Part shown: piece after piece, positions 7,754 to 43,283 of the stretch | Layout: each line of letters begins with the position of its first letter | Position numbering within the stretch: the stretch's first letter is position 1 | Assembly: GCA_963575745.1 (NCBI GenBank) | Contig: CAUYUJ010000220.1 | Coordinates: 1-64,000 of the forward strand | Length of the DNA stretch: 64,000 nucleotides | Source: Prorocentrum cordatum | Lineage: Eukaryota | Direction of reading: 5' to 3' | Program-made: the position numbers and the translations under genes | Notes under the pieces: generated by a model | Database searches by the model: none | What the model was told of the DNA's origin: nothing | The model's input: only the letters and a program-made list of their open reading frames with translations

Positions 7754-8188
7754 TCGTCGTCCTCCTCCTCCTTATCCTCCTCGTCGTCGCAGTCGTCGCC
7801 GCCGCCGTCGTCGTCGTCGTCGTCCTCCTCCTTCGTCGTCGTCGTCGTCGCCGTCGTCGTTATTGCCGTCGTCGTGCCCTCTGGGGTGGAACAAGGACGT
7901 CGTCGCCGTCGCCGTCCTCCTTCGCCATCGCCGCTGCCGTCGCCGTCGCCATCGTCGGTTCCGCCGCCGTCACGCCCCCTGGGGGGCAGCGAGGACGACG
8001 GGGCCAGATGGGGGCGAGGGGCGGCCCCCTCGGCGGCGGACGGTAGCACGACGAGAGGATAGAAGGTATGGCAGCGAGTGGGCGGGGGAGGGCAGAGCTG
8101 GAGAAGGGGGAGGGGCAGGCGGCGGCCAGGAAGAGGGATGGGATGGATACTGCAGGAGGCAGCGGCAACCATTTTTGAAGCGGAGATC

Positions 8189-11164: not shown

Positions 11165-11655
11165 CTGGTGGGTGGGGGAAGGCGGCGAGGAGGCGGATGA
11201 GGGGAGGGCAGGAGCGGGGCGACGGGCGATGAGGACGGCGCACAATGACGACCGATGACGGAGCGCGGCGATGGACGACGGCGCCGCCAGCGACGGACGA
11301 CGAAAGACGACGCGCGACGGACGGCGGCGCCAACGGCGACGGCGACGACGGCGGCGGAGACGACGTAGCCAAAAGACGTCGACGAACGACGACGGACGGC
11401 CGCGATAGATGGGCAACGTCGCCGACAAGGACGACACCGATGACCACGGCGACGGCGACGCCGACGAAATGGGGAGAAGCACGGCAGCGATGACGACGCC
11501 GACGGCTTCGACGACGGAAACGGATGCGACGAGGGCGACTGCGACGACGACGACGACGCTCTCGGCGCGCGACGTCGCCGTCGCCGTTGCGAGCGTTGCC
11601 GTGTGCGACGACGACGTCGACGAATGATGGCGGCGATTGTGAAGCCCCGTGCGTC

Positions 11656-11856
11656 CTTATTGTTCATGTCGCACAAGACGCAGCAAATGAGAACCTGGCG
11701 GGACCTCTCCTTCCTGATGGCCAGGGTCTCCTCGAGCTCGTCCTCGACGATGATCTTGTCTGGTACCTGCGTCTGCTCCTCGGCCTCGTCGCCCGACTTT
11801 GCACCCTTGGCAAGGCGGGCCCTCCTGGGCCGCTTCGGTCTCGGCTCCCGCTCCAT
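11656..11856 (-). CDS. Gene A exon 1 (MEREPRPKRPRR...CCVLCDMNNK)
   Basis: ATG at 11856, basic NLS-like start, donor AAG|GA; joining to exon 2 brings CxxC together with a second CxxC (CDDC). Confidence 0.6.
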
Positions 11857-18430: not shown

Positions 18431-18732
18431 CACCCCTCCCCCCCCACCCCGCCCCGCGCGCTCCAGCCGACCCCTGCGGGGGCCAAAATTGCCTCGGGCG
18501 GTGGTCCCCCTGGACCCTGGTGTCGCGCAGCGGTCGCGGCCACGTTGGAAACGCGGGCCCGCTCGCGCGCTGACGCAGGGGTCCATCGGGCCCCCGACAG
18601 CGCTCGCCCACAGTGCGGGTGCGATGATATCCGCGGCGGGTTTCCATGCCGCGGCTCACCGACTTGCCCTCGGGCCGATGGGGGAGGGTGGATGGTGGGA
18701 GGTGGGGGCGGGCGGTGGTGGTGGTGGTGTGT

Positions 18733-18766
<34 letters not shown>

Positions 18767-19164
18767 ATGGGGGGGGGGGGGGGGGGGCGGGGGGAAGGGG
18801 GCGAAGAGATTTTGGGTGGAAGGGGGGTGCGCCCCGCGCAGCGCTCAAGGCTGCGCCCCGCTTTAAGCCGCCAAGCGTAATCGGCCCCGAGGCCCGCTAG
18901 GCCGCCATTGTCGCGGTGTGACGGGGCGCAGCAGCGTCCGATGCGCAGCCCTCATCGCTTGAATCGGGGGCCCGACGCAAGCACGCGGGCTGGTTGACGG
19001 CCCGCGGCCGCGGGCCCGCGGCCCCCTCTGCGCCCACGTGCCTCCCATCGCGGCTTATGCGGCAGATGCGCAGCTGGCGCGGGTCGCGCTCGGCGCCAAA
19101 TCAAATCCACAGCTGCCAATGGCCGCGCTTACAGAATATGGCAACGGGGCAGGTGGTCGGGGGG

Positions 19165-19760: not shown

Positions 19761-21992
19761 GGCTCGCGAGAAATGTCGTCGGGCGTTCCGCATGATGTCG
19801 GCGGCACCCTCTCTCGGGTGCAAGCTGGTCGTTCCGCTCGCTCGCCGCGTCCGCCCGCCGCGCGCACTCGGCCCTCCACCGCGCGCACTGAGGCCTCCGA
19901 CCACACGCGCGGCACGCTGTCCGCATCTATTTCTGCTCGCGCCCTGCTGCACCCCAAGCAGACTTAACGACAGGCGACGCGCCCCTCGCGCGACAGCGAC
20001 AACCGAGAAAGGAAGCAGGACTGAGAGCGGCCGCAGGCGGCCCGCGCACCAGAGCACGCGCGCTCTCGGGGATGTTATGGGGCATTGTCGCGCTACTGGG
20101 CCAAGCGGCAGCAAAAGGGCAATGGGAACCGAGACTACATCGATAAGATTCGATTGCGCGCGAGAACGCCCCGAGATTGTGCGCGCAATGGCGTCTGGTT
20201 TCGGGCGCTTGGATTAGCGCGTCGGCGTGTCGGCGTTCAGGGTTAAAAGCAAAAGGAGTGCGATGATGTTAAAAATTCAAAAATCATGCTGCCAGTGGCC
20301 AGTGCCTGGGCCATGGCTGAGGCCACGGTTAAAATAACGGTTAAGGGTCAGCGGATGGTGGTGCATAAGATTAAGTGTCTGGGGCAATGTTCCGGGCGCA
20401 AAGTTACGGGCGCGGGGCGGCGCGGAGGGCGCGGTCGCGAATCTTAGGGTTATTTATAGCGCTCGGACATTCGGATAACCACAGCCAGCCCTAAAGGCGT
20501 GACGTTGTTTAGGGCCCTGGGCCTTCAAACTTCCGACGCGTCCATGTCCCCGCCCTCTCCCCATGGACCTCCTGCTAGCGATGCCTTGCATAGCAGCCCC
20601 GCACAGTCCGTGCAAAAAAAACATTGGCATGCAATGCAGAGGCCCATGCAACGATCCCGCAAACACCCCTGCAATGACCTGCAATACCGCTGCAACGGCC
20701 CTGCAAGGACCCCTGCAATACCATGCAAAAACTAATGCGAAGACTTTGCAGTGCCGCGCAAACAACCCTCACCGCCCACGCCAACGGGCCCCGAGAGCCC
20801 CCGAGGGCACAAATGCTGCCCCGAGAATGCAAAAACCAACTGCACCATGTAACACAAAGGTCGTCCCACCCTGCGTGGTTCCGTAGATCCTCTTGGAGCA
20901 TTCTTGGGCCCTCTTGGAATCACCCTGGTGCCCTCTCGGAGCGCCCCCATTGCCATATTGGAGCCCCCATGCGAACCCGTCTGGTGGGACGGGGCAAGAA
21001 GCCCGCGAGAACAAACAAAACAAAACAAAATTTGTCCAGAAGCCCTTCGTGGCAAGCTCCGACGGTGGCGCCCTCCCAGGCACCTCTCGGGGCCTCACAA
21101 TGGGCCCAATATACCTCAAGGCGTGACCCCAGTGCGAGATTTGCATTCCCCTTGTCAATGAAACCCACCTGGGCGTCCTCTCTGGATGGGCGGGCGGGGA
21201 CACGCGAAGCGTTAAGAAAATCATGTGCGACGCATTGGCCTCGGGCCCCAGGATTCGGAAGCGATGGGCACGGCGCCACAAGTCGGGTCGTGCATTGAAG
21301 GCTCGAACTGCGCCATGCGACGATATATTATATATAGTTGTGTGTTCCCGCCCCGCTGCGTTGCCACGTCGATCAGAGGGTGGCGGAAAGGATGATAAGG
21401 ATGGCTAGGACGCGGAGGTGGGAATTGCGGCATTGACGGTGCGCAACCGCCCCACCCTCCATCGCACCCCCACGTGCCCTCCATCCAACCACGCACTTTC
21501 ACGGCCAACTCGATCTCGCCAACCGCTCCTCCCCCTCTCCCGCCCAACCGCCACGGCGGCGCCCTCCCCCAGGGCGGAGCTCGTCCGCGCGGGGAGGTGG
21601 ACAAGCGAAACGCCGAAGTGGAGAAGGATGCAACTATCCTGGGAACCAGCGGGAACTCTCAAGTGCGGCATTGTCGCAAGCCGTGCGGCACCAACTCACG
21701 ACAGCAGCGAACGCGCGATCGCCGCCGAAACGGCGGCGGGCCTACAATGAACTGGGGCCTAACTGCCCAGGGCCGTGCAGCGAGAGACTATGCTCAATCC
21801 CACTGCCGAGTGGCAAAATGCCACCCCCTCCACCCCGCGCCATATCCACTCCTTCCCCTTTGTCATCCTCGTCCGTGCCCAAGTTTATCTTGCCCCCCTT
21901 CCCAGCGTCGTGTCGTCATCCGAACTTCCCTCGCTCATTGCCCCCTCCCCCCCGCGCCCGCGGCTGGCGGGTCCGAGTCGGAATCGGGGCCG

Positions 21993-22667
21993 CTAGGGCG
22001 GGCACACATCTGGCTCGGAATTCTCGTCGCCCTCTTTCGGGCGCTCGCGCCCCAACAGGCGCCTCCCCATAACAGTCAGCTTCAAATCCTTTCGGACGGC
22101 TCTGCGCTGATCGGGCGACGGGGTAAACTTCAAATGTGAATGCTGGCATTTCTCGTCAACGCCGTGGATGCACCATGCAACCGCAGCGGCAGCGCTGCGG
22201 CCCTGCTCAGGGTGACTCAACATGCGGTGGCCCTTAGGCTTCGCAGTTGTGAAAGTTTTCCTGCACTTGCACCCGTGCTTGATTTTATTAGGGCAAGTGA
22301 TCTCAAACTTATTCATGTTCGGATAATGTAAAACCTTCCCGCCGCCAGGGACCATGAAAGTAAGGGTGCCACCAGGGTCGGCCTCGTCGGGCACGCCTGG
22401 AGGCGCCGCTGGCGGAACTGGTTCCAGAGGCGGGGGGGCGGCTGCAGGCGGGGGCTCGCCTGCGGGGTGGCCAGGGGCAGGGGGCGCCTCAGGCTCAGGA
22501 CCGGGCGGTTCATCTCCGCCTGCGTCGACAGCAGCCGCCGCCAACTCATCCGAGCCGTCGTCGCCTCCAAGCGCGAACGGGTCCACGACCTCCCCGTCCG
22601 AGCCCTCGCCCTCGGGCGCTGCCTCCTCGGCGCCAAATGCGCCCGCGCCCTCGCCCAGCACCTCGTC
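21993..22667 (-). CDS. Gene B last exon: acidic/Pro linker plus Cys/His-rich C-terminal domain
   Basis: Acceptor ccgcag|GAC; GKVLHY...FEITC...HGCKC...QGR...AWC...H...ERP...EPDVCPP* is clearly protein-like. Confidence 0.7.
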   Translation of the reverse strand, partial: DEVLGEGAGAFGAEEAAPEGEGSDGEVVDPFALGGDDGSDELAAAAVDAGGDEPPGPEPEAPPAPGHPAGEPPPAAAPPPLEPVPPAAPPGVPDEADPGGTLTFMVPGGGKVLHYPNMNKFEITCPNKIKHGCKCRKTFTTAKPKGHRMLSHPEQGRSAAAAVAWCIHGVDEKCQHSHLKFTPSPDQRRAVRKDLKLTVMGRRLLGRERPKEGDENSEPDVCPP

Positions 22668-23380
22668 CTGCGGAGACGCGCGCGCACGCCCGACAGGCCA
22701 GGGGAGCGGAGGCAGTGGGATCGGGCCCCAGGGCACGCCAGAACGGGACAGCCAGACATTTATCAAGCGGTGAACTGGCATTGTGGAAGAAGAGGGGGGC
22801 GGTGGAATGCGGCGGACACGACATGCACGGCGGTGCGACGACATGCGCGGAGGGGGGAGGGGCGAAGATGACAGACGCGAACTGGAAAAGAGGATGGCGA
22901 GGAGGGGTGGCAAAGGGGATGCGACGATGTTGGGGGGGGGCGGTGCATAATGTTGCAACCTGCGTCTCAACGCAACGAGCGCAGGGGCAGGGTGCACGGA
23001 GAGAAGGGGTAGGGAAGGGGAGGCGAGGACGAGCAAGGATATGAGGAAGAGCACGCATAAACTGAATCACGAGCTCGTCGTCGCGGCGGCCGCCGCCCTC
23101 AGATTCCTCGTCCTCGTCCCCGCCCCCATGCTTGCCCATCACACACACGCGCACGCCCTCATTCACCCTCCGACCACTCTCCTCTTCCCCCTGTGAACCC
23201 CCTGCGCCCGCACGGCGTGAATCGCGCATTGAGTTTACGCCGTGAAATGGCGGATCAGTTTGCGAGAGTGGGGGGAATGAAACCGAAGCACCGCATGACA
23301 CCCCCCACACACACGCGCACACACGTTCCCAGGAACTGGAAATGCCGTGCCATGTTCACACTGTTCGGTTGCCCCTGGTC

Positions 23381-23887
23381 CAGCGCGGCGCCGAAAGCCG
23401 CGGGCCCCATCACGTCGTCGACGGGCTCGCCGTGGCCGTCGGCCCCCTCGGCGCCGTCGGCGAATGCCTCTGGCACAGCCTGGTCCTGGTCGTACTCGGC
23501 ATCGGCACCCGCCTCGACGTCTGCCCCTCCGCCGTCCTCGAGCGGAAGGGGGTCATCAGCGCCGTCTCCTCCGCCGCCTTCAACGCCAGGCTCGGCATGG
23601 CGACCCCGACCACGCCCTCGAGCCGCTCGCCCGCGGCCGCGGCCCCGCCCACGGCCCCTCGCCCCTCCGCCGGGCCCGCCGCCGTGACCGCCGCCGCGGC
23701 GACGCGTCACCAAAGGAAACAATTGCTGCATGCTCATCTCGGGGCGCGCTCGAACGAGCACGAGGTCAGGGCGCATCTGCGCGATCTCCCTCGAGTGCGT
23801 CTGCATCTCGTATACGTCAATGTTGCACACCATGACCCTGGGGACGCGCTGCAACATCTGGTACGCATTCTCCCACGCGCCAGAAGC
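23381..23887 (-). CDS. Gene B exon 3 (ASGAWENAYQML...)
   Basis: Acceptor ccccag|GCT, in frame with exon 2 ending CAG|GC; 3' boundary approximate (23375-23381). Confidence 0.6.
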
Positions 23888-24867
23888 CTGGGGGAGGGCG
23901 ATCGAGCGCGGAATGGCACGGACGGGGTGCATAGCATTGAGCATGGGAACTTGGGCGTACCAAGCCAGGCGCGTGAGTACGCATGTGCTGGCAATACCCG
24001 CGCTAGGCCCGAAGAGCAAATAAGGGGGAGGGCGTTACTAAATCGCAAGTGGCACTGATGTGGCCCCAGGGCGGCACCAAGAAGGGCCCAGGAGGGGGAA
24101 CACGACCCGACAATTCGAACCTCCCGCCCCAAGTCCCCAGAAAGCCACACGAGGCCTCGAGGAGAGACCAGGCCCATAAGGCCACCGAGATCCCACAACC
24201 CCCAAGAGGCCACCGAGCAATCCGAAAAGAAACATCAAAGCGGCCCCAAGAGGCCTCAAACCTGTCTCCAAGAAGCCACAAAGAGGCTTCCCACGGTGTC
24301 GCGATATGCCAACGAACCTCAAGGAGTCCTCTCTAACCCACAGTCCAAGCATGGCGGCGGGAGGTGCCGAAGGCCATTATATAACGTGGTATGTTGGTGT
24401 TTGTTTCGGCGCCTGCCTTTGACATGCCCTATGTCGCGGCGCCCGTGTAATGTTCTACTCGGACAGATCGTGGATTTTATTTCGACGGCTTTCCTGACGG
24501 GAGGTCTGGAGCTCAGGGGGCAAGTTGAGCTGCAACTCGAAAGGCAAAGCTAAGCTGCCGTTGCCCTCTACTACAACGCGCACCTCAAAGAAAACGCAAG
24601 CGAGCGTGGCTCAGCGCCCAAGAGGGCTCGCCAGCATTGCGGCGGGAGCGAAGTCACGTACAGACGGGTCGCGGCCCATAAGCAGTGCAAGTTCAAAAAT
24701 TCCATGGGTCCTCCTCCTCATCCTCAGCCGTATCATACCCCTTGTCCTCCCCACCTCTCACTCTTCATCCCCCTTATCCCACTTGCCATCCTCCTCCTCA
24801 GGGCCCACGGCAGAGGCGTTGCCCGCAAACTCAAAGGCGCGTCGATAACGCGCCCGAGAGAAGCTGC

Positions 24868-25473
24868 CTACTCACTGTCGCTGGACTCCCAGTCCTCATG
24901 CACCTTGAACGTGATTGAGTATTTCTTCTCGCGGTTCCTGAAGCTGTTGGACGCCCGCCCCTGCGGGTGACTAGAGTGGCTCTGGACCATGCTGTAGAAC
25001 GCGTTCGTCGTGATGAGAGGCGGCATCGTCTCCAAGGAGTTGTACTCGAACTTCTGCTCGTAGGTCCTGCGGCGCTTCGGGTTCCTGGCGGTGACGACGG
25101 GCGGCGCAGCTCCTGAGGGGGCCGCGTCTCCATCCGAGGGTGGCTCCGACGGCGCCGCCGCATCGTGGCGACTTGCTGCCGACGGGGGCGGCTCCTGCGG
25201 CGAAGGCGGCGAAGGCGCCGTCGCTGCTGACGCGTCGTCGGCAGACGCCTGCTCAAGGGCGCTGCGGTCGACGGCCTGTGGCGGGATCGAGTCGCCGACG
25301 TAGATGGGTAGCGTGGGCGTACCCGTCCACAAGTCACCGACGCCGAACTCCTGGGGCAGATCGGGCCCCGCGTGCATCCTCTCTGCACGGGCCCTCGCCC
25401 CCCGTTCGTCACCGACGCCTGGGGTCACTGCCTCTGGTGGCACACCAGCGGGCGGCTCGGCCGTGCCAGCCAT
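24868..25473 (-). CDS. Hypothetical ~200-aa ORF or exon nested in a gene B intron
   Basis: Pro/Ala-rich N-terminus, then a complex tail RNPKRRRTYEQKFEYNSLETMPPLITTNAFYSMV...DWESSDSE*; GC3 bias. Confidence 0.5.
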   Translation of the reverse strand: MAGTAEPPAGVPPEAVTPGVGDERGARARAERMHAGPDLPQEFGVGDLWTGTPTLPIYVGDSIPPQAVDRSALEQASADDASAATAPSPPSPQEPPPSAASRHDAAAPSEPPSDGDAAPSGAAPPVVTARNPKRRRTYEQKFEYNSLETMPPLITTNAFYSMVQSHSSHPQGRASNSFRNREKKYSITFKVHEDWESSDSE

Positions 25474-26469
25474 CCGCACAGACGGGGAGGTACGCTAAAT
25501 CGATCGATGGCTAGCTCGAGCGAGAACGGCTACGGAGGAGCCGAGGGGGCGCGGCCAAGCGGGGGGGGGGGGCGGACAAGGGATCATGAGATGGAGGGGG
25601 CGAGTGGCAGAGCAAGCCGCGAGGCCCGCGGAAGGCCAACGGCCTCGTGGAGGCCATCGCACCCATGCCAAACCAGCGAGCACTGCTGCCCCCCCCTCCC
25701 CGCCACGCACACACACGCACGCATCTCGTTGGGTTCCTCGCGCCCCCGATGGCGAGCGGCGCTGGCGACCAGAGCACTTCGGCTACATTGCACGCATGGG
25801 ATCCCAAACAGCAAATCAGACGGCAGACAGACGTCGCGGGGCATGGCAAATGCAACATTACATAGACGCGAGTCTGTCCGAACCTGGTAGTGATAGAGTT
25901 GACGGTGGCTCTGGTGGAGATGATTGCGGTATTGGGCACGGATGGTGGTGGTGGTGACGCCGACGTTGATGGTGATGATGGCGATACTTGCGTTGCTGGC
26001 GATGCCGATGACGGTGATGCCTACGATGGTGATGTTAATGATAACGGTTATAACGGCGATGGTGGTGGCGACGATGATGGTAGCGGTGATGATCGGGGCC
26101 CTCTCCGACCCCCGCGCGAAACCACTGGCCACCCGCCCCCGAGCCCCGCGGGGGCGCCAAGGAAACATCGGGCGGCCCGCCAAGGCGCCGCACGACTGGG
26201 GGGCGAGGGGAAGGGGAAGGGAAACAAATGGGAAAGATATAGAGAGACGGCCTCCTCAACCTCCTCCTTTTCATCCGTGCAGAACCGTTGCCCGCCGCCC
26301 CTCAGGAGCGGGCTGGGCTGCGGCTGCGGTCGCGCAGGCGGCCCAGCGACTGGGGGGGGGGGGGGGCACCCGACCACGCGCGCGCGCGCGCCGCTCGTCG
26401 GCCCAGGGCGCGCGTGGGAACGCGTCCTGGGGCGACGACCAGCGCGGGTGTGCAAGTGGCATGCGCCCC

Positions 26470-27058
26470 CCCGATCCTCGGCCACCTCGGCATTGGCACA
26501 AGCGGGCGCCGCGGCCGCCCGCGACGCGGCGGCGTCGCGCGCCGCCTTGGCGGCCACGAGGACCTCCACGGCGTCTCTCGCCGCCTGCCTGGCGCGGACC
26601 GACTCGGCGAACGCCGAATCGACAGCCGCCTGTAGCATCGCTGCGCCCCACCCCGACTCCCCAAGCATCGACGGCAGTCCGAAGGCATCGATGGCATCGG
26701 CCTGAGCTGCTGCGATACCGCCCGCGGGCCGCGCGGCCTCGGCGACATCGTGGGCGGCCTGGGTCGCCTCGCTGATGCTGGTATCGGCCTTGGCCGACGG
26801 CTCGGCGCTGGCCGATCCTGCCACAGGCCCGCTGGCGTCTTCGGGCGTTGGGTTACCCGAGGCCGCCTCGTCCTGCAGCGGCCGCTCGACGGCGGGCGCC
26901 TTCAACAAATGGGGCGGGGGCGGCCCTGGCGGCGGATGCGGGCCCCGCGGCGCGACCACCGCGGGAGGCGAAGCTGCTGACGCGCGGCGCGTCGGGGCCA
27001 CGACGACTGGAGCACGGCGAAGCGGAGCCCGCGCGACGCGCGGAGGCGGTCGCCACAT
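26470..27058 (-). CDS. Hypothetical Pro/Ala-rich ORF or exon nested in a gene B intron
   Basis: ATG at 27058 (MWRPPP...), helical segment AMLQAAVDSAFAESVRARQAARDAVEVLVAAK; end uncertain. Confidence 0.4.
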
Positions 27059-28004
27059 ATCGGCCGTGCCCCGCACGGGCGCTGCCGCAAACCCGAACCA
27101 AAAAACATGATACGTAGTGATCGGATGGGGGGGAGATGAGAAGAGCAGGATTGGCGCCACCGCACCGCATCTGACGCCTTACCATTTCCATACCTCCCAT
27201 GTGTCCCAGGGCTTCTGCCTACCCTTTATCCAACTTAAACGGGCCATCACAAACAATGCCTGAAACCGTGATCTGCATCCTGGGTGGGCCAGCTACCAGA
27301 CCTCGCGATAACTCAGACCAGGCAGACCCCTATAATACAATACACCTTACATGCCAAATACAATCAAGCGGCCCAGTCGCGGCGCCCAACACGCCCAACC
27401 AACTCAGAATGTGATGTGGCAAGCATCCAGAAGTAGCAAAGCGGATCTCGAAACGCGTGACATACCAAGCTGGCATTGCATCGCATAAACACATGCACCC
27501 GACCCGCCTGATGCACCCAACCCTCTCTTTTCCCTTTAAAAGAAATTGGCTAAGGGCTCAGTGCGCAGGGCTCGAGGTTCCGAGTTTCGAGCTGATGGCT
27601 TAAGGGCCCACCTCGGGGCTCAAGGCATGTTGATCTGGGTCGTGGGCACCAGGCTCAGGGCACATGGCATATCAATGAGAGCTTCGGGCTGAGGCCAAGG
27701 GCTATGGGCAGAGTGCAAGGAGGGGTGGTGTCTTCGGGCCGAGGGGTCCAAGTTGACGGATTGAAGCTCAAGGCAGAGGGCTGACGGCCTCGGGCCCATG
27801 CGCAGGGGCACCCGCTGCAAGCTTGAGGAAAGAAGCTGGGGGCTGAAGGCCATGGACTGGAGGCTTCGGGCTCGGTGCCGAGGGCGCAGGGCCTACGGCC
27901 AGGGGATCGGGGCGTTCTTATCCGCGGCCCACGGCTCCCAGAGAGAAGAGGAGGAGGGGGGCGAGGAGAGGGGAGAGCGAGAGAAGCGTTTTGAATCGGC
28001 CAGC

Positions 28005-28109
28005 CTGGAGAGGCACCTCGCCCGCGCCAGCGTTGGCCAAGTAGAGGCTCTCCTCGTCCGTGACGGGGAACATCTCCTGTAGCATGAGGCCGTGCGGCGA
28101 GAGCTTGAC
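28005..28109 (-). CDS. Gene B exon 2 (VKLSPHGLMLQEMF...GEVPLQ)
   Basis: Acceptor gaag|GTC, donor CAG|GC; 35 codons, phase 0. Confidence 0.55.
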
Positions 28110-29138
28110 CTTCGAAATCCAACTAGCCCTAAACCTGGACAAGGCACCCCGCGAGGCGCTGGAGCGGCCAAGATTGTCCAAGACGGCGCCGAGAAAGCCT
28201 CGAGGAATGCAAGATGGCCTCCCATATGGTTCAAGAGAGCGCAATATCGCTTAAGACGGCTATGCTCCAAGGTCCCCCAATACCCCATCCAAGATGCGTC
28301 CATGAGCCCTCGAAGGCCCCTGAGAATACACCCAATACACCAAAACCTTTCAACGAAGTGCAAAACATGGCTGGTTATGGCATCATCGCCACGGTCTTCT
28401 AACGACCATTTCACGCCTGACAATTGCCCCGAGCTGGCCCGAGAGCGCGGCGATATAAGGGGGCCACGTGAGCCCCAAGACGGCCTCAAGATAGCCCAAG
28501 AGCGCTCCAAGAGTCCCCGCCCACGAGCACCCCAGATTATGAAAATCCCCGAGGGGAGGGGGGAGGTACTTGAAGCCCCCCACATTCTCTGATAAAGCCA
28601 CCCCCATTTAAAACTGCCCCAAGAACGCCCACGGGCCCCCGAGAGCGCCAAACGAGGGCCCCAGGAGGCGCCCAGGCGGCCCCAACAGGCGCCAAAGACT
28701 TGAGGCTCCCAAGGGGCTCACCCACCCAAAGAAGCCGCAAGAGGAAGGCACTCCAGACGCTCGAGGGCGCCCCTGGACCCGCCTAGAGCCCCGGCCCCAG
28801 ACGCCCCCATAAGCCTACTCCACACAGCTTCCAAGATACACCCGAGATGACCCGACAGGCATTCAAGAGGCATGTGGACCCATTGCTTGCCCTTCTCATC
28901 CCCGTCCTGCTCCTCATTATCCTGCTTCTCATCCTCTTTCTCCGCATCCTTCTCCTCCGCGTCGCCCTTTTCATAAATGTCCCCCCCCCGCCCGCGTAAT
29001 CCATCCATCCAACCTCCTCCTTATCCTCCTCCATCCTTCGCACGGCTCGGATGCCCCCGCATTTGCCCCCGCACTCCCCTGATCACCCCCGCTCCCCTGG
29101 CCACCTCAACTCCTCCCGATGGCGGTGATACGCGAAGC

Positions 29139-32100
29139 GCCACGAATCTGAAACCACTTCGGCACGTCGACGCCGAAGTCCACGAGCTGGTCCTCGTCGT
29201 CGCCGCCGTCGAAATCAGGAATCCAAGAAATTCTGATGATGATCTTGCCGCCCACGAACAAAGAACGGTCCTGGGCACTCTGCGGCTTGAACAACTCCTT
29301 GCAAATCACAAACAATCTGTTGCGGGCTCGGCACAGCGCGAGGCCCTCCGCGCCGCAGAGGCACACGCCTGCCTCATAGCACTTGCTCGGGGAGTCGCTG
29401 GGCACGTTGTCGGGCGCCTCGATGCCAGGCAATACTCGGCATAAGTGATTCCACTGTGCGATGGCAGCCGCTCCGAAGGCAGAGGTCTTGCTGCCGCCAA
29501 GCTGCAGCGCCGAACAAGCCCGCGCTGCCAGCGCCGACGCGCCCCCAGCGTCGCGCTCCAGGATGCGGGCGCCGAGGGCGGGCGGTAGCGCGCGAAGCCA
29601 CGATGCGACGGCCTCAACTCTCGGCGCAACAGCGGTCAGCTCCGAGACGTACTCGGCCGTGTGCTCGGAGCTAAACTTCTCGACGGCGTCCCTGTCTGCG
29701 ATATCCTGGGACTTGTCCTGCTGCCGTAGGTGTTGCACCACTGACCTGGCATGGCGCATGGTGTCGTCGAGGCCCCTGCCAGCGGCCGCGGACTCATCCA
29801 ATACCCGATCGATGGCGTCGTGGCGGTCGGCCTGCCCGAACCGAACCAACGCGCATTCCATGACCCGCCGTTCCTGGAACTTCCTCAGCTCCCTTGCAGC
29901 GGGCCCGAACGCTGGCAGTCCTTCGCGCACCCTCTCCTTCGCCTGGTTGCCCTCATGCTCGAACACCTGCCGCTCCTCTGGAGTGAGTGCGCGGTAAGCG
30001 GCGCCCATCGCCCTGAGGTCGTTGTTCTTGGACATGTGCAGGAATGCCCTCCATGCGCCCCCGAACCCTCGATGGTTTCGCTGCTCGGGCGGCCCCGCGG
30101 CCACCTCGCCTGCAGAGGAAGCTGCGCCGCCACTCGCGCGGCTGAGGCCCTCCTTCAGCTGTCCGCTCAAATCGTCCGCGCTCAGATCCGTCATATTCAT
30201 TTTGTGCGTTTGAACTCTCCTGCTGATGACCCGCCGCAAGTACGCATTGTGGCACTCGTTCTGGACGATATTCGTTTGCAGTAAAAGCGCCATTGCAAGT
30301 AATTCCATTGTGTACTCAATACTGCCGACGCGGCACCGAGACCGCAGCTCCCGAGTCCACGGGTCAAGCGAGCATTCTGGATCGCCTGCCATGCTATCGG
30401 CGAGCTCGGGCTGCACTAACAACAAGAAATTCTTGGTGGGGTACCTCTCCGCGGGCTCGATGAGAAGCGACTGCACCGACGCCCCTGCTATCGACAACGA
30501 GATGAAGATCTGCGACCGAAGCGCATTTGTTAAATCATGAGGTGGAAGCAGGGCCCACATCACATGATTTTGCATCATGAAAACAAGCCGTCTCAGCGCC
30601 TCACTCTCGATCACCATACTGGCAACTACTGAGGCCCTAAACTCTCGATTGATGCCGCCAGGGTTTGACTGTGCCGCCCTGGCTGCCTTGGCCCGCTGCT
30701 CGCGCTCCCATCGGAGAGACGTGAGGTGAGTTTGCTTGTTGAGCATTGTTTGCAGAGCGTGCAGAACATTCCGAACTACCACAATGCCGCTGCGGGCGCT
30801 TGGGCCCTCCATGCCGAGAAACGACAGCGAGTTCGAGAGTGCCCTGGCCATTTTTTTGGCTCGCTCCCTCTCGCGGTCAACCTCGCCACGAGCGTCCGCG
30901 GAGTTGGGGTCGCATGGCTCCTCGGCAACGTCTGCAACGGGCCGCAGCACCTGCCAGTTGAACGCAGGGGCAGGGTCTAAGTCGAAAGGGCTCGTGGCTG
31001 GAGCCCGTTTCCGCGCCTGCAGCAGCAGCGTGAGGAGGCACATCGCAGGCTTCATAACTCCACAAACCATCACGGGCAATCCTATGTCGCAGATGGCGCC
31101 CTCGACTCGTGTCCAGCGAGCCCTGTTCAAGACGGAGAAGCATTTCGAACACAAGCCCTGCACGATGCCGTCGGCGAGCTCGTCCTTATATCGCTCAGGA
31201 TGCTGAACCGCCTGATCCAACCAGACGTCCATGCGCGACTCCTGGAGCCAGTCGCCGTTCGGGAGAAGCCGAAGCAGTACGCGGCGCCGAAGAGAGTGCT
31301 GATCACCAGGAATGAAAGCACGCAACACCATCATGTGGTAGAGCACCATCTCCCTCGTTGGTTTCCCAATTCGCAGGCGCAGCATCTTCCGCACAACTAT
31401 GTACAAGCAGTCGCGGAAGTCTACGAACATGCCCGCTGTGTTGAAGAACAAGCCAGTGTGCAACACCCCCCGCACGACCCACTCGAACGGCACGCAAGCC
31501 TCACCGTGAATCGTGAACGTCTTGTGGGCAACGCACTTCCACACCAAGATGCCCCACGCAGCTTGTTCGGCCCTGAGTCTAAGAATCTCCCGCTCCGCTG
31601 CGTCATTGCTGGGGTGGCGATCGGAGTCTGCTGCCCCTGTCCTGGCCTCGAAAAAATTGTCAGACATAGGAGTGGCATCGTTTTCCAACAAAGCTTGCGC
31701 AATACACTGGGCAGAATTCGCCCTGAGCGCTTGGTTCACGGTCGTAGACCCCCCAATCAGAATCGTAAAACGCTCGTCACCGCCTCTCCTGAACGACGCG
31801 ATGTACGCAAAGTGGCTCCGAATGTGGAACAGCTTCGTGACGTTCACCTGACTCTCGTACCCCAAGTGGCCCCTCAAAAACGGCAGGTATACTTGCAAGT
31901 TGCTCGTCGCAGGAACCATCGCATTCGATTGTTGCTGCGAAGGGTGGCGTTTGCGCCTGTCTGTTGTCTTCAAGAGCTGTGGTGTCTCGTCGTAGCTGTT
32001 GTGGTCGATAACTGCTCTAGCGCGAACTCCAGAGTCTGGCGTCCTGGCAAGCTGCACAACGGCTTCTGATAAAACTTGTCGAAAAACCCTGTCGGCGTTC

Positions 32101-32468
32101 CACTGCAAGCTGGCGAACTTATAGTTATTCCTGTCGAAGCCCTTCCTACTCACATCCAACGCTTCAGCTCTAGCATTTTTGCCCAAGTGGGGGGTCAGGT
32201 TGAGGAAAAACTCGCTGGCGTGGTCATCCACGTCGTGCTCGCCGACGCCAGCCGCCACAGCCAGCAAAGCACGGGTTGGTTGCGATAGGGGAGAGCTTGT
32301 GAACATCAGCCGCGGCAGCGTGATATCCTGCGAAACTTGTCTGCTGATCCTTCCAGCTTCGGCCGCCTGGGTGGGCAGCGCGAGCTGGGCGCCCTCATCG
32401 CGCCGACGTCGTTCGGCCCGAGCCTTCGCCCGAGCTACCTGCAACTCTTGAGGCGTTAAGCGGGGCAC
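29139..32468 (-). CDS. Gene B exon 1: DDE/CxxH transposase-like protein with an HMG-box-like segment
   Basis: 1120-codon ORF with ordered motifs SYDETP, DSDRHPSN, WKCVAH, RARWT and NECHNA, then GGAWRAFL...MGAAYRALTPEERQVF (HMG-like) and CYEAGVCLC. Start is GTG; start and donor positions are uncertain. Confidence 0.8.
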
Positions 32469-32515
32469 CGGCCGAAACTATTGCGATCGTTGCGAGACGA
32501 TCCAAAGCGAAAGAA

Positions 32516-32537
32516 TTTGAGCCAACATGGTTACGGA
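32516..32537 (-). other. Relic dinoflagellate spliced leader
   Basis: TCCGTAACCATGTTGGCTCAAA, 19/22 match to DCCGTAGCCATTTTGGCTCAAG, ~47 nt 5' of gene B. Confidence 0.85.
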
Positions 32538-33599
32538 ATCGTGCTTACGAAGGCGTGATAACCTAGGCTTTGTGATAGAAGTGGCCCTTCGCTGGCGTCG
32601 GGTCGCATTCGCCCCCCTTGCAATCCGACGGGGGGGAAAGGAGGAAGGGAACAGGGGAGAGCAGTAGTAAAGGGATAACAATATTTGACGACAGCGCCAT
32701 CTCTCGACGGCCACCCCTGGACCTGACGGCAAAGACCCCCGCCCCTGGCAGAAAACAACGGGCGCTTGCATGAATGGGCAAGGATAGCTGCATCATCGGA
32801 CGAGGACGCGACGCTGCAGCAAAAGATGTCTCCCCTGCGTTACTTCGCGCCACCCGAATGAATTGTCGACGCAACCGATCCTCATCGATCTCCGCATTAT
32901 TATCCTCCTCTGGGGAGTTTGTATCACTTCTCCATCTGCTCCTCCTGCTGCTGGCGGCCCTACTACTCATCATACTATTTCTCCTCCCTCTTGTCCCCCT
33001 ATACTCCTACTTCTCGGCATCCTCGTATTCCTCCTCCTCCTCGTCGACTTTGACCTCCCTCAACCTCGCCTTTATCATTATCCTTGTCCCCTTTCTCCTT
33101 CTCTACAAACGCTACAAAAGTCGAGGGAATCCAAGCCGCCAGGAAAGCAATCTTAAACAGCGCCGAAACACAAAAACCTAAACATTTGAAAAACATCTGT
33201 TAGGCATTCGTTACGTGTGAAGACACGCCAACGCTGCGGGGACATCTGGAGGACATTTGGGGTGGATATGCGCACCCCTCAATGTCTAGCCTGCTCGCCC
33301 CTTGCGGTGCAAGGGCCCTGGAAGGCCATGTCGACACACTTTGAACGGGGCGCGGCCAGTGGAAGCAGCCAAGATGGACCGAATGAGGCAAGGATGCAAG
33401 GGCAGCCTCGGAAGGTGCTCATCCTTGGGGCACACGCAATGACATACACATGGGAACCCTCGGGTCCGCGCGGGTTCCTCGGATCTGCGCTGGGCGCCGC
33501 TGTCAGCGTGGACCGCCGAGCGATTCTGCTTATGTCTTGCTTGCTCTTACTATGCGCATTGACTGTAACAGATCACTCTCTGCAGAGCGAGAAAAGCCG

Positions 33600-36500: not shown

Positions 36501-37100
36501 GATAGAGCATCCGACGAACAGAGCGCAAACAAGTGGCGTCAATGCGCGCAACTCGCGCATCTTCAACGACCTGACGCACGCATTGAATATCAACTTCGAC
36601 AGGATGAGGCTTCGACGCAGGGAGGAACGCAAGGACAGCTGCAAGCCGCTTTTGCCGAACACTTTCGTTGCTGCCATGGCGCTTGTACTCCGAAACGACG
36701 CGCGGGAACGCATTGCCCCCTGGCACGCGCGTGCCGCGCCCGGCTTCAGTTCGCGACCTCTCATGGAACTTCGTTGCGTGATTGCCGCGGAACTTGGCGA
36801 ATCCCCCCCCCCTCCTCCCCCTCCGCCTCGATCTCCTCTTCCCCCCCCCCCCGGCATCTTCGCGCCCCCCCCCCCCCCCCGCCCCCCCCGCTCAGGTCGG
36901 GCGAAAGGAGGGGGGGGATCTGCCGCTTCCAGCTGATCAAAAAGCCGATGGGCAACGACCGCAGCAATTGCCGTGGCGGCGCAGCCCGGGCCAGACGCGC
37001 GGGCCACGGGCCGCGCTCGGGCGCGCGCGCCTCGACGCGGCTCGGATGCCCTTCGAAGCCGCGAGGCGCATTGAAAGCCCACGGCGCGGGAGACAAATGG
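33600..37100 (+). pseudogene. Possible decayed coding region of unknown origin
   Basis: Microsatellite-poor stretch with protein-like fragments in shifting + frames (e.g. MLRDMFHGWLGKIRKR, RIFNDLTHALNINFDR); no recognisable family. Confidence 0.3.
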
Positions 37101-43261: not shown

Positions 43262-43283
43262 CTTGAGCCAAAGTGGCTGCGAA
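43262..43283 (-). other. Relic dinoflagellate spliced leader
   Basis: TTCGCAGCCACTTTGGCTCAAG, 19/22 match. Confidence 0.8.

What the first reader, a model, noticed from the sequence alone, without database searches (positions are those of the whole stretch)
21993..32537. ~1540-aa DDE/CxxH transposase-like protein fused to an HMG-box-like segment and Cys/His domains, in an SL-marked copy
Seen: motif order D(ETP) ... D(RHPSN) ... CxxH ... RW ... E(CHNA). Known: this layout occurs in RNase-H transposases with a helical insertion (hAT, Mutator, IS256, IS66 types). Also seen: an HMG-like helix pattern, CxxxxxCxC and a C-terminal Cys/His domain. I do not recognise this architecture as a named superfamily. 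The SL relic, the 3.3-kb unbroken first exon and the lack of visible TIRs suggest a retroposed or domesticated copy. It could represent an uncharacterised transposase family able to mobilise local MITEs or introners (speculative).
Basis: partly seen in the sequence, partly recalled or inferred. Interest (0 to 1): 0.75.

Follow-up and report, generated by a model that had tools for sequence, protein, structure and literature searches.

The report
Divergent hAT-like dinoflagellate transposase gene
A long gene in a dinoflagellate genome encodes a very distant relative of the hAT "cut-and-paste" transposases that carries its own HMG DNA-bending box and belongs to a large protein family with no name; this copy looks like an ageing retro-copy, not a complete mobile element.

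Summary
A 1123-codon open frame lies on the minus strand (29106-32477). A degenerate dinoflagellate spliced-leader relic (32516-32537) sits just upstream. The protein has 1602 cluster representatives among its relatives. The motifs D163, D286, C315xxH318, R454-W455 and E741 are kept in every aligned relative or nearly so. No Pfam model and no PDB sequence matches. An AlphaFold model of residues 90-800 (pLDDT 88) matches the Hermes hAT transposase far better than any other solved structure (Z 15.0, 378 residues aligned; next best Z 8.9). A model of a homolog's tail shows a true HMG-box fold. It also shows a CxxxxxCxC domain and a C-terminal Cys/His module, neither with a recognisable fold.

Family homology continues in two further minus-strand frames (about 23390-23949 and 21996-22650). 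This gives three coding segments, not four, and about 1450-1550 residues. No RNA data were available to test the splice sites.

This copy has no terminal inverted repeats or target duplications. Its ancestral start codon reads GTG. It departs from the family at several invariant positions.

Best reading: a member of an undescribed, hAT-like transposase family, copied by mRNA retroposition and possibly decaying. Novelty: new variant of a known kind.

The parts
32516..32537 (-). Degenerate dinoflagellate spliced-leader relic (TCCGTAACCATGTTGGCTCAAA). A mutation creates an ATG that opens a 16-codon frame. That frame is closed by the TAG at 32478-32480, directly before the main frame.
   Evidence: 3 mismatches to the 21-nt core and 0 matches in 100 shuffles. 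Sequence read.
32466..32468 (-). GTG codon (V4 of the open frame) at the position where the closest N-terminal homolog, P0014, has its Met1. This is the presumed ancestral start codon, lost in this copy. It lies 47 nt downstream of the SL relic.
   Evidence: P0014 MPRLPPDQLQ aligns with window VPRLTPQELQ. Sequence read.
32307..32309 (-). First in-frame ATG of the long frame (M57). Starting here would give a protein lacking about 53 N-terminal residues, including the basic RRRR stretch.
29141..32468 (-). Coding segment 1. The frame is open over 29109-32477. It covers the N-terminal helical region, the DDE core with its insertion domain, the HMG-like box, a helical linker and the first part of the CxC domain.
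   Evidence: The full family HMM matches at E 1.1e-289. The 3' boundary is inferred.
30198..32030 (-). RNase-H-like DDE catalytic domain with an all-alpha insertion of about 415 residues (aa 150-760). Key codons: D163 31989-31991, D286 31620-31622, C315..H318 31524-31535, R454-W455 31113-31118, E741 30255-30257.
   Evidence: AlphaFold model, pLDDT 88.2, pTM 0.86. Hermes transposase Z 15.0, rmsd 4.0, 378 residues aligned. Conservation counts.
29880..30080 (-). HMG-box-like three-helix segment (aa 800-866, RNHRGFGGAWRAFL...GLPAFGPAAR).
   Evidence: Pfam HMG_box E 0.19, below the cut-off. The equivalent 62 residues of homolog P0090 model as an HMG box: HMGB1 box 9cg9_K Z 6.3, rmsd 2.4, 56 residues aligned, and ranks 1-13 of 48,161 chains are HMG boxes. 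Mapped to the window.
29355..29381 (-). CxxxxxCxC motif (C1033, C1039, C1041) at the start of an alpha+beta domain that continues into segment 2.
   Evidence: Invariant in 40 of 40 sequences. Modelled at pLDDT above 90 in the homolog. No clear structural match: Z at most 3.8.
23950..29140 (-). Inferred intron 1 (5191 nt; GC at its 5' end, AG at its 3' end). It holds several stretches that are high-copy in shotgun runs and a 376-codon frame (26048-27178) with no family homology.
   Evidence: The join gives WFQIR-V-PMLNAMHPV, which keeps the family spacing W..I....L....P. Depths. No HMM match for 26048-27178. Not tested with RNA.
23390..23949 (-). Coding segment 2 (frame open over 23258-24034; the 3' end is approximate). 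It holds the rest of the alpha+beta domain and the start of the Gly/Arg-rich and acidic low-complexity linker.
   Evidence: Tail HMM positions 140-303, E 7.4e-10.
22650..23389 (-). Inferred intron 2, or a double frameshift. Its boundaries cannot be placed because they fall in the non-conserved linker.
   Evidence: Segment 2's frame closes at 23256-23258, and segment 3's frame opens only at 23066.
21996..22649 (-). Coding segment 3: an acidic/Pro-rich linker, then the family's C-terminal Cys/His module (about 21996-22385, GGGKVLHYPNMNKFEITCPNKIKHGCKC...ERPKEGDENSEPDVCPP). The stop codon is at 21993-21995.
   Evidence: Tail HMM E 2.6e-23. The C-terminus has the same form as in P0083, P0090 and P0133. 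The window keeps 20 of 26 conserved columns.

Best explanation
The gene encodes a member of a large, unnamed, apparently dinoflagellate protein family. Its core is a DDE transposase of the hAT (Hermes) structural type.

Architecture: an RNase-H-like fold carries D163 on strand 1 and D286 after strand 4. C315xxH318 follows strand 5. An all-alpha insertion domain of about 415 residues contains the R454-W455 motif. E741 lies on the helix that closes the active site. Downstream come an HMG box, a helical linker, a CxxxxxCxC alpha+beta domain, a low-complexity linker and a C-terminal Cys/His module.

Inferred mechanism, by analogy with Hermes (from recalled knowledge of that enzyme, not shown here):
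- The three acidic residues hold two metal ions.
- The enzyme nicks at a transposon end, forms a hairpin on the flanking DNA with the conserved Trp stacking on a flipped base, and joins the freed 3'-OH ends to a target.
- The built-in HMG box would bend DNA for synapsis. HMGB1 does this as a separate cofactor for RAG1/2.

This copy is not inside a recognisable cut-and-paste element. It carries a spliced-leader relic 47 nt upstream of the ancestral start position. I therefore infer that it was made by reverse transcription of a trans-spliced mRNA and was later interrupted by two introns or insertions. The start codon reads GTG, and several family-invariant residues are changed. The copy is probably under relaxed constraint, although its catalytic residues are intact.
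For: Family:
- 1602 representatives at E<=1e-3, 804 at <=1e-10 and 210 at <=1e-30.
- The catalytic and flanking motifs are kept in essentially all aligned rows of the 150 best hits. In the 40-sequence alignment D286, C315, H318 and E741 are invariant.

Fold:
- The model of aa 90-800 has pLDDT 88.2 and pTM 0.86, with the order b1-b2-b3-a1-b4-a2-b5, then helices, then the E helix.
- Foldseek ranks 1-10 are all Hermes chains, probability 0.99-1.00.
- VIA-align gives Hermes Z 12.5-15.0 with 367-378 residues aligned over model 4-691. The next rows are retroviral integrase cores at Z 7.6-8.9, ISCth4 at 8.8 and the P element at 7.7.
- In the viral library, rank 3 is a Pandoravirus hAT-dimerisation-domain protein, probability 0.90.
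- The nearest named clusters by language-model features are hAT families (DUF659, Dimer_Tnp_hAT, ZBED1_RNase-like) at 0.80-0.82. This is a lead only.

HMG box.

Gene continuation and C-terminal module.

Retro-copy:
- SL relic.
- Met1 of P0014 aligns with GTG at 32466-32468, 47 nt after the relic.
- No TIR with a TSD of 5 bp or more within 7 kb on either side; only G/C runs among the 25 longest inverted repeats.

Relaxed constraint:
- 5 of 44 conserved core columns are changed, against a family median of 4.7% and a 90th percentile of 14%.
- 20 of 26 conserved C-terminal columns are kept, the lowest share among the 18 sequences compared. The R of 'TR' and the P of 'GRPLG', both 17/17 in the family, are lost.

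Other copies: short shotgun contigs about 85% identical to parts of segment 1 point to further copies.
Against: - No sequence method links the family to hAT. No Pfam match above any curated cut-off was found for the window protein or for the 43 different members scanned. A family profile finds no transposase among PDB sequences at E<=10. Foldseek's best E is 3.3e-3, above its 1e-3 line.
- I could not read the model coordinates, so the spatial clustering of D163, D286 and E741 is inferred from topology and alignment offsets and was not measured.
- The HMG and tail folds were modelled on homolog P0090, not on the window's protein. The window's pieces are 18-31% identical to it.
- A retro-copy of a mature mRNA should lack introns and may keep a poly(A) remnant. 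This gene is interrupted twice, and no A-run lies within 1.1 kb of the stop.
- A 1123-codon frame without a stop argues against long neutral decay.
- No transposon ends were found for any family member, so mobility of the family is inferred only from its fold, size and diversity.
- The dinoflagellate origin of the relatives is not shown: the 20 clusters looked up carry no organism or informative name.
Confidence: 0.6

Rival explanations
1. Domesticated host gene. The family is a hAT-derived nuclease or DNA-binding protein that dinoflagellates use for a cellular task such as chromosome maintenance, recombination or programmed rearrangement. It has multiplied like many other dinoflagellate gene families, and this locus is an ordinary, expressed, intron-containing member.
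For: - No TIRs or TSDs around this copy.
- The gene has introns and sits among other long minus-strand frames.
- Family-wide extra domains (HMG box, CxC domain, C-terminal Cys/His module) are kept in distant members, which suggests selection on more than the catalytic core.
- Many relatives are uninterrupted 1200-1600-residue proteins on 4-10 kb contigs.
Against: - 1602 clusters at 50% identity, with pairwise identities of 20-35%, is more diversity than expected of one or a few host genes.
- Diverged copies seem to coexist in one shotgun data set.
- This copy has lost its ancestral ATG and several invariant residues.
- Nothing ties the family to a host function.
Confidence: 0.2
2. Intact autonomous transposon. 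This locus is a live cut-and-paste element whose ends lie further out or are too short or degenerate for my search. The SL-like sequence is part of its 5' region.
For: - The catalytic residues D163, D286, C315, H318, W455 and E741 are all present.
- The frame is 1123 codons long and unbroken.
- hAT TIRs can be as short as 10-20 bp and imperfect (recalled). My search needed 12 nt with at most 1 mismatch and an exact 8-nt seed.
Against: - No TIR plus TSD was found within 7 kb on each side, and no second copy lies in the window to define ends.
- The start codon is replaced by GTG.
- Invariant residues of the C-terminal module are lost.
- The coding sequence is interrupted by 5.2 kb containing high-copy repeats.
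Confidence: 0.08
3. Dead pseudogene fragments. The three homologous segments are remnants that are never joined. The 5.2 kb between segments 1 and 2 is a later insertion and not an intron, and no protein is made.
For: - ATG has become GTG at the ancestral start.
- The conserved WxHI...SP..PTF stretch is degenerate across the junction: WFQI and NAMHPV.
- GRPLG has become GRSAA.
- The interval holds high-copy repeats.
- The splice sites are inferred, with a non-GT 5' end.
- No RNA evidence exists. That says nothing either way.
Against: - 1123 codons without a stop, in a region where chance frames reach about 300-490 codons.
- Segments 2 and 3 are also open across their homologous parts.
- The inferred join restores the family spacing exactly and in frame.
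- GC and GA 5' splice sites are usual in dinoflagellates (recalled).
Confidence: 0.12

Closest known systems
hAT superfamily transposases (Hermes, the solved example; also Ac, hobo, Tol2, recalled)
   Same: - RNase-H-like DDE core split by a large all-alpha insertion domain.
- CxxH soon after the second Asp, an R-W motif inside the insertion, and the catalytic Glu on a C-terminal helix.
- Hermes is by far the best structural match (Z 15.0, 378 residues aligned over model 4-691 and chain 115-609).
- By eye, the second-Asp block (S/C)TDxxxxN resembles hAT's TDNxxN. The hAT motif is recalled.
   Different: - No detectable sequence similarity. No Pfam match of any family reached a curated cut-off for the window protein or the 43 different members scanned; no hAT family was among the listed sub-threshold matches. 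There is no PDB sequence hit with a family profile.
- No BED finger was found.
- The insertion is about 415 residues; Hermes has about 290 (recalled).
- The protein is about twice as long and adds an HMG box, a CxC alpha+beta domain and a C-terminal Cys/His module.
- TIRs and 8-bp TSDs were not seen.
RAG1/Transib and Sleeping Beauty, which use HMGB1 as a separate cofactor (recalled)
   Same: A DDE recombinase that needs DNA bending. Here an HMG-box fold is present.
   Different: Here the HMG box is part of the transposase chain. RAG1 is a poor structural match to the core (Foldseek probability 0.13-0.16).
Mutator/MULE and the IS256 family (ISCth4), and the P element (THAP9)
   Same: DDE transposases with a C/DxxH motif and an insertion between the second Asp and the Glu. 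The first-Asp block 'DET' recalls the P element's 'DEM' (recalled).
   Different: Much weaker structural matches: ISCth4 Z 8.8 with 260 aligned, P element Z 7.7 with rmsd 8.0. No Pfam match to MULE, Transposase_mut or Tnp_P_element was listed.
Dinoflagellate retrogenes with relict spliced leaders (Slamovits and Keeling 2008, recalled and not read here)
   Same: A degenerate 22-nt SL copy lies directly upstream of the coding region, separated by a short (47-nt) former 5' UTR.
   Different: There is one relic, not a tandem series. The gene is interrupted twice, and no poly(A) remnant is visible.

Membership tests
hAT superfamily of DDE transposases | RNase-H-like catalytic fold with Asp on strand 1, Asp after strand 4 and Glu on a later helix, interrupted by a large all-alpha insertion domain. 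| tested here: met
   Model with pLDDT 88.2. D74, D197 and E652 in model numbering lie on E62-83, at the end of E189-196 and in H649-664. Hermes Z 15.0 with 378 residues aligned. The spatial clustering of the three residues was not measured.
hAT superfamily of DDE transposases | CxxH after the second Asp and an R-W motif in the insertion domain (motifs recalled from the hAT literature). | tested here: met
   C315 136/136, H318 136/137 and W455 141/143 aligned rows; R or K at 454 in 142/143.
hAT superfamily of DDE transposases | Significant sequence match to hAT family models (Dimer_Tnp_hAT PF05699, hAT-like RNase-H, DUF659, ZBED-type). | tested here: not met
   No Pfam match of any family reached a curated cut-off for the window protein or for the 43 different members scanned: 32 at E<=0.01 and 35 at E<=0.5, with 24 in both scans. 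No hAT family appeared among the sub-threshold matches. The family profile finds no transposase in PDB sequences at E<=10. Language-model neighbours are hAT clusters at only 0.80-0.82.
hAT superfamily of DDE transposases | N-terminal BED-type zinc finger (common, not universal). | tested here: not met
   No Pfam zf-BED match. The N-terminal consensus has no Cys/His pattern. One member has a sub-threshold AT-hook match (E 0.018).
hAT superfamily of DDE transposases | Element ends: short TIRs flanked by 8-bp target-site duplications. | tested here: inconclusive
   None was found within 7 kb on either side of this copy. This copy may be a retro-copy, and no other genomic copy could be fetched.
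HMG-box domain | L-shaped three-helix fold of about 65-75 residues. | tested here: met
   Homolog model residues 1-62 have pLDDT 94-97 over most blocks. Ranks 1-13 of 48,161 chains are HMG boxes, Z 5.3-6.3, with 56-62 residues aligned. The fold was modelled on P0090 and mapped to window aa 800-866.
HMG-box domain | Match to Pfam HMG_box above the gathering score. | tested here: not met
   P0001 E 0.19, 12.6 bits against a cut-off of 25.4, covering profile positions 33-68 only. 0 of 35 members at E<=0.5. One member has a sub-threshold match to the YABBY C-terminal domain (E 0.0076).
Dinoflagellate SL-relic retrogene | Relict spliced leader directly upstream of the coding region. | tested here: met
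   Relic at 32516-32537 with 3 mismatches and 0 chance matches in 100 shuffles. It lies 47 nt before the homolog-defined start position.
Dinoflagellate SL-relic retrogene | Intronless coding region and a poly(A) remnant, as expected of a fresh copy of a mature mRNA. | tested here: not met
   There are two interruptions of about 5.2 kb and about 0.7 kb. No A-run lies within 1.1 kb after the stop. Later intron gain or insertion would reconcile this and was not tested.

The most novel reading that the evidence does not exclude
The family is a previously undescribed, superfamily-level branch of hAT-like DDE transposases, specific to dinoflagellates or their relatives. It has fused an HMG box and two new Cys-rich modules to the catalytic core. 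It is still active and widely transcribed. It spreads both by cut-and-paste and by reverse transcription of its own trans-spliced mRNA. It could then be the unknown autonomous partner of some of the non-autonomous TIR elements and introners that fill dinoflagellate genomes.
Probability: 0.25. Interest if true: 0.75.

Novelty: new variant of a known kind. Interest (0 to 1): 0.55.

Why it matters
Dinoflagellate genomes are huge, rich in repeats and still gaining introns from mobile elements, yet few of the enzymes that move their DNA have been identified. Here is a very large family (1602 clusters at 50% identity) that no Pfam model recognises. All 20 clusters I looked up are unnamed or called 'hypothetical protein', and none has an NCBI or UniRef source.

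A confident structure model shows that the family is a Hermes-type transposase with conserved catalytic residues. This gives a candidate enzyme for cut-and-paste mobility in these genomes. It gives a profile with which to annotate thousands of 'dark' marine proteins. It also gives a natural example of an HMG box built into a transposase, whereas other DDE recombinases recruit HMGB1 separately.

The locus itself illustrates how a transposase gene can be multiplied by the dinoflagellate habit of re-inserting trans-spliced mRNAs.

Tried and rejected
- RNA evidence: no RNA holder listed, so the exon model, splice sites and expression are untested.
- Whole genome: none is held for this window.
With the single proteins P0001 and P0009 it found no confirmed locus in metagenome contigs (26 and 64 pattern matches, none confirmed). 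No TIR or TSD comparison across copies was therefore possible.
- Word-indexed protein searches gave almost nothing: 1, 2 and 1 hits.
- A fourth exon in the 376-codon frame 26048-27178 is rejected. It has no match to the tail or full family HMMs and no Pfam match. Frames of 300-490 codons are common in this GC-rich DNA, including one antisense to segment 1.
- Mini-exon at 28721-29020 (WVH): HMM E about 1, rejected.
- TIRs at the gene flanks: only homopolymer G/C runs; 3 candidates with 3-4 bp TSDs and none with 5 bp or more.
- Introner-like TIRs at the ends of inferred intron 1: local score 12, reached by 1469 of 2000 shuffles.
- Dispersed repeats shared between the gene region and the rest of the window: 8 short matches of 61-127 nt at 72-80% identity.
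- Second copy in the window: none.
- Fold of the CxC alpha+beta domain and of the C-terminal module: Foldseek found nothing at E<=1e-3. VIA gave Z at most 3.8 for model 261-428 and at most 2.7 for 514-596. The wide search list was filled by the HMG box.
- First Atlas search with the whole protein: unnamed clusters at 0.84 and 0.77 only.
- Literature: five full-text searches and a passage search in PMC12130899 found no description of this family. Repbase could not be consulted, so an existing Repbase entry is not excluded.
- Earlier notes of this scan: nothing by place or by sequence.
- Shotgun contigs are short (mostly 150-450 nt) and cannot show splicing. Their joints fall within repeats and were not used.


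Full report
**What is in the sequence.** The window is GC-rich (0.51-0.71 in 2-kb windows). On the minus strand a frame of 1123 codons runs without a stop from 32477 to 29109, with the stop at 29106-29108. Thirty-nine bases upstream lies TCCGTAACCATGTTGGCTCAAA (32516-32537). A second site at 43262-43282 matches equally well. None of 100 dinucleotide-preserving shuffles of the window gave any match. I therefore take the organism to be a dinoflagellate; this is an inference.

**A large family without a name.**
- Pfam gives nothing above its cut-offs for the long frame. DUF6699 reaches E 0.017 and HMG_box E 0.19. The frames 21996-23066 and 26051-27178 have no match.
- No PDB sequence matches at E<=1.
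- An exhaustive HMMER search of 1.84 billion cluster representatives found 1602 proteins at E<=1e-3, 804 at <=1e-10 and 210 at <=1e-30. The best is 34% identical over residues 87-1111. Many hits are 1200-1750 residues long.
- Two overlapping Pfam scans, of 32 members at E<=0.01 and 35 members at E<=0.5, covered 43 different members. They gave only scattered sub-threshold matches and no transposase family.
- In the 20 clusters I looked up, every member is unnamed or called 'hypothetical protein'. All come from JGI, ENA or Logan assemblies, on contigs of 1.5-12 kb.
- In a 40-sequence alignment, D286, C315, H318, P680, C702, E741, W1009, C1033, C1039 and C1041 are invariant. D163, E164, T165, W455, R748 and R749 are at 90% or more.
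- I aligned the 150 best hits to the family HMM and counted only rows with a residue at the position. D163 is kept in 126/126, D286 in 135/135, C315 in 136/136, H318 in 136/137, W455 in 141/143 and E741 in 146/146.

**The fold.** AlphaFold2, run on residues 90-800 with an 80-row alignment, gave mean pLDDT 88.2 and pTM 0.86.
- The order of elements is three long strands, a helix, a strand ending at the second Asp, a helix, and a fifth strand followed at once by CxxH. About 415 residues of helices follow, and then the helix that carries E741.
- Foldseek against the PDB put ten Hermes transposase chains in ranks 1-10 (E 3.3e-3 to 3.2e-2, probability 0.99-1.00). The P element, Mos1 and RAG1 came further down. 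No hit passed E 1e-3.
- VIA-align on Foldseek's top chains gave Hermes Z 15.0 (rmsd 4.0, 378 of 476 residues aligned, model 4-691 against chain 115-609), and Z 12.5-14.6 for five other Hermes entries. The next rows were retroviral integrase cores (Z 7.6-8.9, about 130 residues aligned), the IS256-family transposase ISCth4 (Z 8.8) and the P element transposase (Z 7.7, rmsd 8.0).
- The integrase alignments start at model 66-68 against HIV-1 integrase 56-57, which would put D163 opposite integrase D64. That is my inference from the offsets; residue pairs were not printed.
- In the viral structure library the only meaningful row is a Pandoravirus protein with a hAT dimerisation domain (rank 3, probability 0.90, E 0.10).
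- A language-model feature search restricted to named clusters returned hAT-type clusters (DUF659, Dimer_Tnp_hAT, ZBED1_RNase-like, hAT-like RNase-H) at 0.80-0.82. These scores count only as leads.
- A family profile finds no transposase among PDB sequences at E<=10.

Taken together, the core is a Hermes-type DDE transposase by fold and motif logic, but it lies beyond the reach of sequence methods.

**The rest of the protein.** The homologs continue past the end of the window's long frame. I built an HMM from the tails of 17 full-length relatives. It matches three minus-strand frames of the window:
- 29109-32477 (HMM positions 8-112, E 2.8e-12);
- 23258-24034 (positions 140-303, E 7.4e-10);
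- 21996-23066 (positions 257-480, E 2.6e-23).

The full family HMM gives the same three frames and no other. The last frame ends ...ERPKEGDENSEPDVCPP, just as P0083, P0090 and P0133 end ...E(E/A)(P/N)E(Q/L/D)(C/A)(P/L)P. The stop at 21993-21995 is therefore the true end of the gene.

A join of ...ATT CGT G (exon end at 29141) to TT CCC ATG... (exon start at 23949) reads WFQIRVPMLNAMHPV. This reproduces the family spacing W-x-H-I-x4-L-S-P-x2-P. The removed 5191 nt begin with GC and end with AG. This junction is inferred.

A second interruption of roughly 0.7 kb must lie between about 23390 and 22650, because segment 2's frame closes at 23256-23258 and segment 3's frame opens only at 23066. It falls in a non-conserved low-complexity linker and cannot be placed. 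The product would be about 1450-1550 residues.

The 376-codon frame at 26048-27178 has no family or Pfam match. Frames of 300-490 codons are common here, including one antisense to segment 1. I therefore count three coding segments, not four. No RNA run was listed, so none of this is tested by transcripts.

**HMG box and Cys/His modules.** Joined sequence may not be typed, so I modelled the last 652 residues of the uninterrupted homolog P0090 with a 64-row alignment that included the window's three pieces. Mean pLDDT was 79.6, and the folded domains were mostly above 90.
- A search of 48,161 representative PDB chains put HMG boxes in ranks 1-13. The top hit is an HMGB1 box on a nucleosome (Z 6.3, rmsd 2.4, 56 of 62 residues aligned); SOX2, capicua, LEF1, SOX11, UBF and SOX9 follow at Z 5.3-6.2. 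All cover model residues 1-62. These residues map to window residues 800-866 (29880-30080).
- The CxxxxxCxC domain (model 216-430, alpha+beta) and the C-terminal module (model 528-634: four strands, then helices, with a C..H.C pattern, a GRPLG.L.AWL motif and an ER....E..EP tail) gave no convincing match. Foldseek's best E was 0.07, and VIA Z was at most 3.8. These parts were barely tested, because the HMG box filled the wide list.

**Is this copy a transposon?** I found no sign of element ends.
- The 25 longest inverted repeats in 17-38 kb are G-runs against C-runs.
- A scripted search looked for inverted termini of 12 nt or more with adjacent direct repeats, within 7 kb on either side. It gave three candidates with 3-4 bp repeats and none with 5 bp or more.
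- There is no second copy in the window.
- No genome is held, and the scans of metagenome contigs returned nothing.

The 5' end instead looks like a copied mRNA. The closest N-terminal relative, P0014 (35% identity), begins MPRLPPDQLQ opposite the window's VPRLTPQELQ. The ancestral start is therefore the GTG at 32466-32468, 47 nt after the SL relic. That layout of SL, short 5' UTR and start codon is what a reverse-transcribed trans-spliced mRNA would leave behind. Such retrogenes are known in dinoflagellates (recalled; the paper was not read here).

Two points count against a simple retro-copy: the two interruptions, and the lack of any poly(A) remnant within 1.1 kb of the stop. Later intron gain or insertions would reconcile them. 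The ends of the large interval show no inverted repeat above chance.

**State of the copy.**
- The catalytic residues are all present.
- The ancestral ATG reads GTG, and the first in-frame ATG is at codon 57.
- 5 of 44 strongly conserved core columns are changed (R281G, H472C, R547L, P574A, H744N). That is 11%, against a family median of 4.7% and a 90th percentile of 14%.
- In the C-terminal module the window keeps 20 of 26 conserved columns, the lowest share among the 18 sequences compared. It loses an Arg and a Pro that are 17/17 in the family.
- The WxHI and SP motifs at the first junction are degenerate.
- Against decay, a 1123-codon open frame is far longer than the chance frames seen here.

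I read this as a fairly young or weakly constrained copy and cannot decide whether it makes protein.

**Shotgun DNA runs.** Contigs from four coded DNA runs were laid on 21500-33000.
- One run holds short contigs identical to the window, both in the gene and in the large interval, at depth 2-4.
- It also holds contigs about 85% identical to parts of segment 1 (for example 15 differences between 30177 and 30265). This points to further diverged copies.
- Parts of the inferred intron are very high-copy: summed word depth is about 2000 at 28412-28795 and 171 at 23804-24187, against 0-7 over segment 1.
- These stretches carry degenerate CCCAAGAG-like units.
- Contigs cannot show splicing.

**Verdict.** Its central reading, an uncharacterised RNase-H-fold transposase family seen here as a retroposed or non-autonomous copy, is largely borne out. 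Three corrections apply:
- the fold is specifically hAT/Hermes-like;
- the gene has three homologous segments, not four;
- nothing yet links it to MITEs or introners.

Five full-text searches and one passage search found no description of this family. Repbase could not be checked. I rate it a new variant of a known kind, with moderate interest.

Noticed in passing
window 43262-43282 (-): A second spliced-leader relic (TCGCAGCCACTTTGGCTCAAG, 3 mismatches to the core), preceded by a purine-rich stretch. It may mark another retro-copied gene downstream on the minus strand.
   Followed up: partly
window 7970-11656 (-): Another very long open frame (1228 codons) on the same strand, with no Pfam match at E<=0.001. 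It is not related to the transposase family: there is no tblastn or HMM hit.
   Followed up: partly
window 28412-28795, 23804-24187, 25724-26107, 27644-28027 and 28796-29179: Stretches inside the inferred 5.2-kb intron are very high-copy in coded shotgun runs X1 and X2 (summed word depth up to about 2000, against 0-7 over the coding segment). The sequence read at 28380-28800 carries degenerate CCCAAGAG / GGCCCAAGA units. A similar motif on the minus strand appears again near 20900-20925.
   Followed up: partly
window 30981-32069 (+): A 362-codon stop-free frame runs antisense to the transposase coding segment. Fourteen frames of 300 codons or more occur in the 64 kb. Long open frames alone are weak evidence for genes in this GC-rich DNA.
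   Followed up: no
window 18728-18808 and 36803-36894: A long G-run (about 70 nt, interrupted by AAT) and, 18 kb away, C-rich runs. These account for all the top 'inverted repeats' around the gene.
   Followed up: no
proteins P0014 and P0007 (clusters): The window protein's closest relatives for its N-terminal part (P0014, 457 aa) and its middle and C-terminal part (P0007, 653 aa) have cluster members on contigs of the same five lengths (6495, 5016, 7576, 6323 and 11135). The closest relative is probably one gene called as two ORFs, split by an intron or a frameshift after the LPxGxW motif.
   Followed up: partly
window 32478-32528 (-): A mutation in the SL relic (ATTTTG to ATGTTG) creates an ATG that opens a 16-codon frame (MLAQILSLWIVSQRSQ). 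It is in frame with the main frame and separated from it only by a TAG.
   Followed up: no
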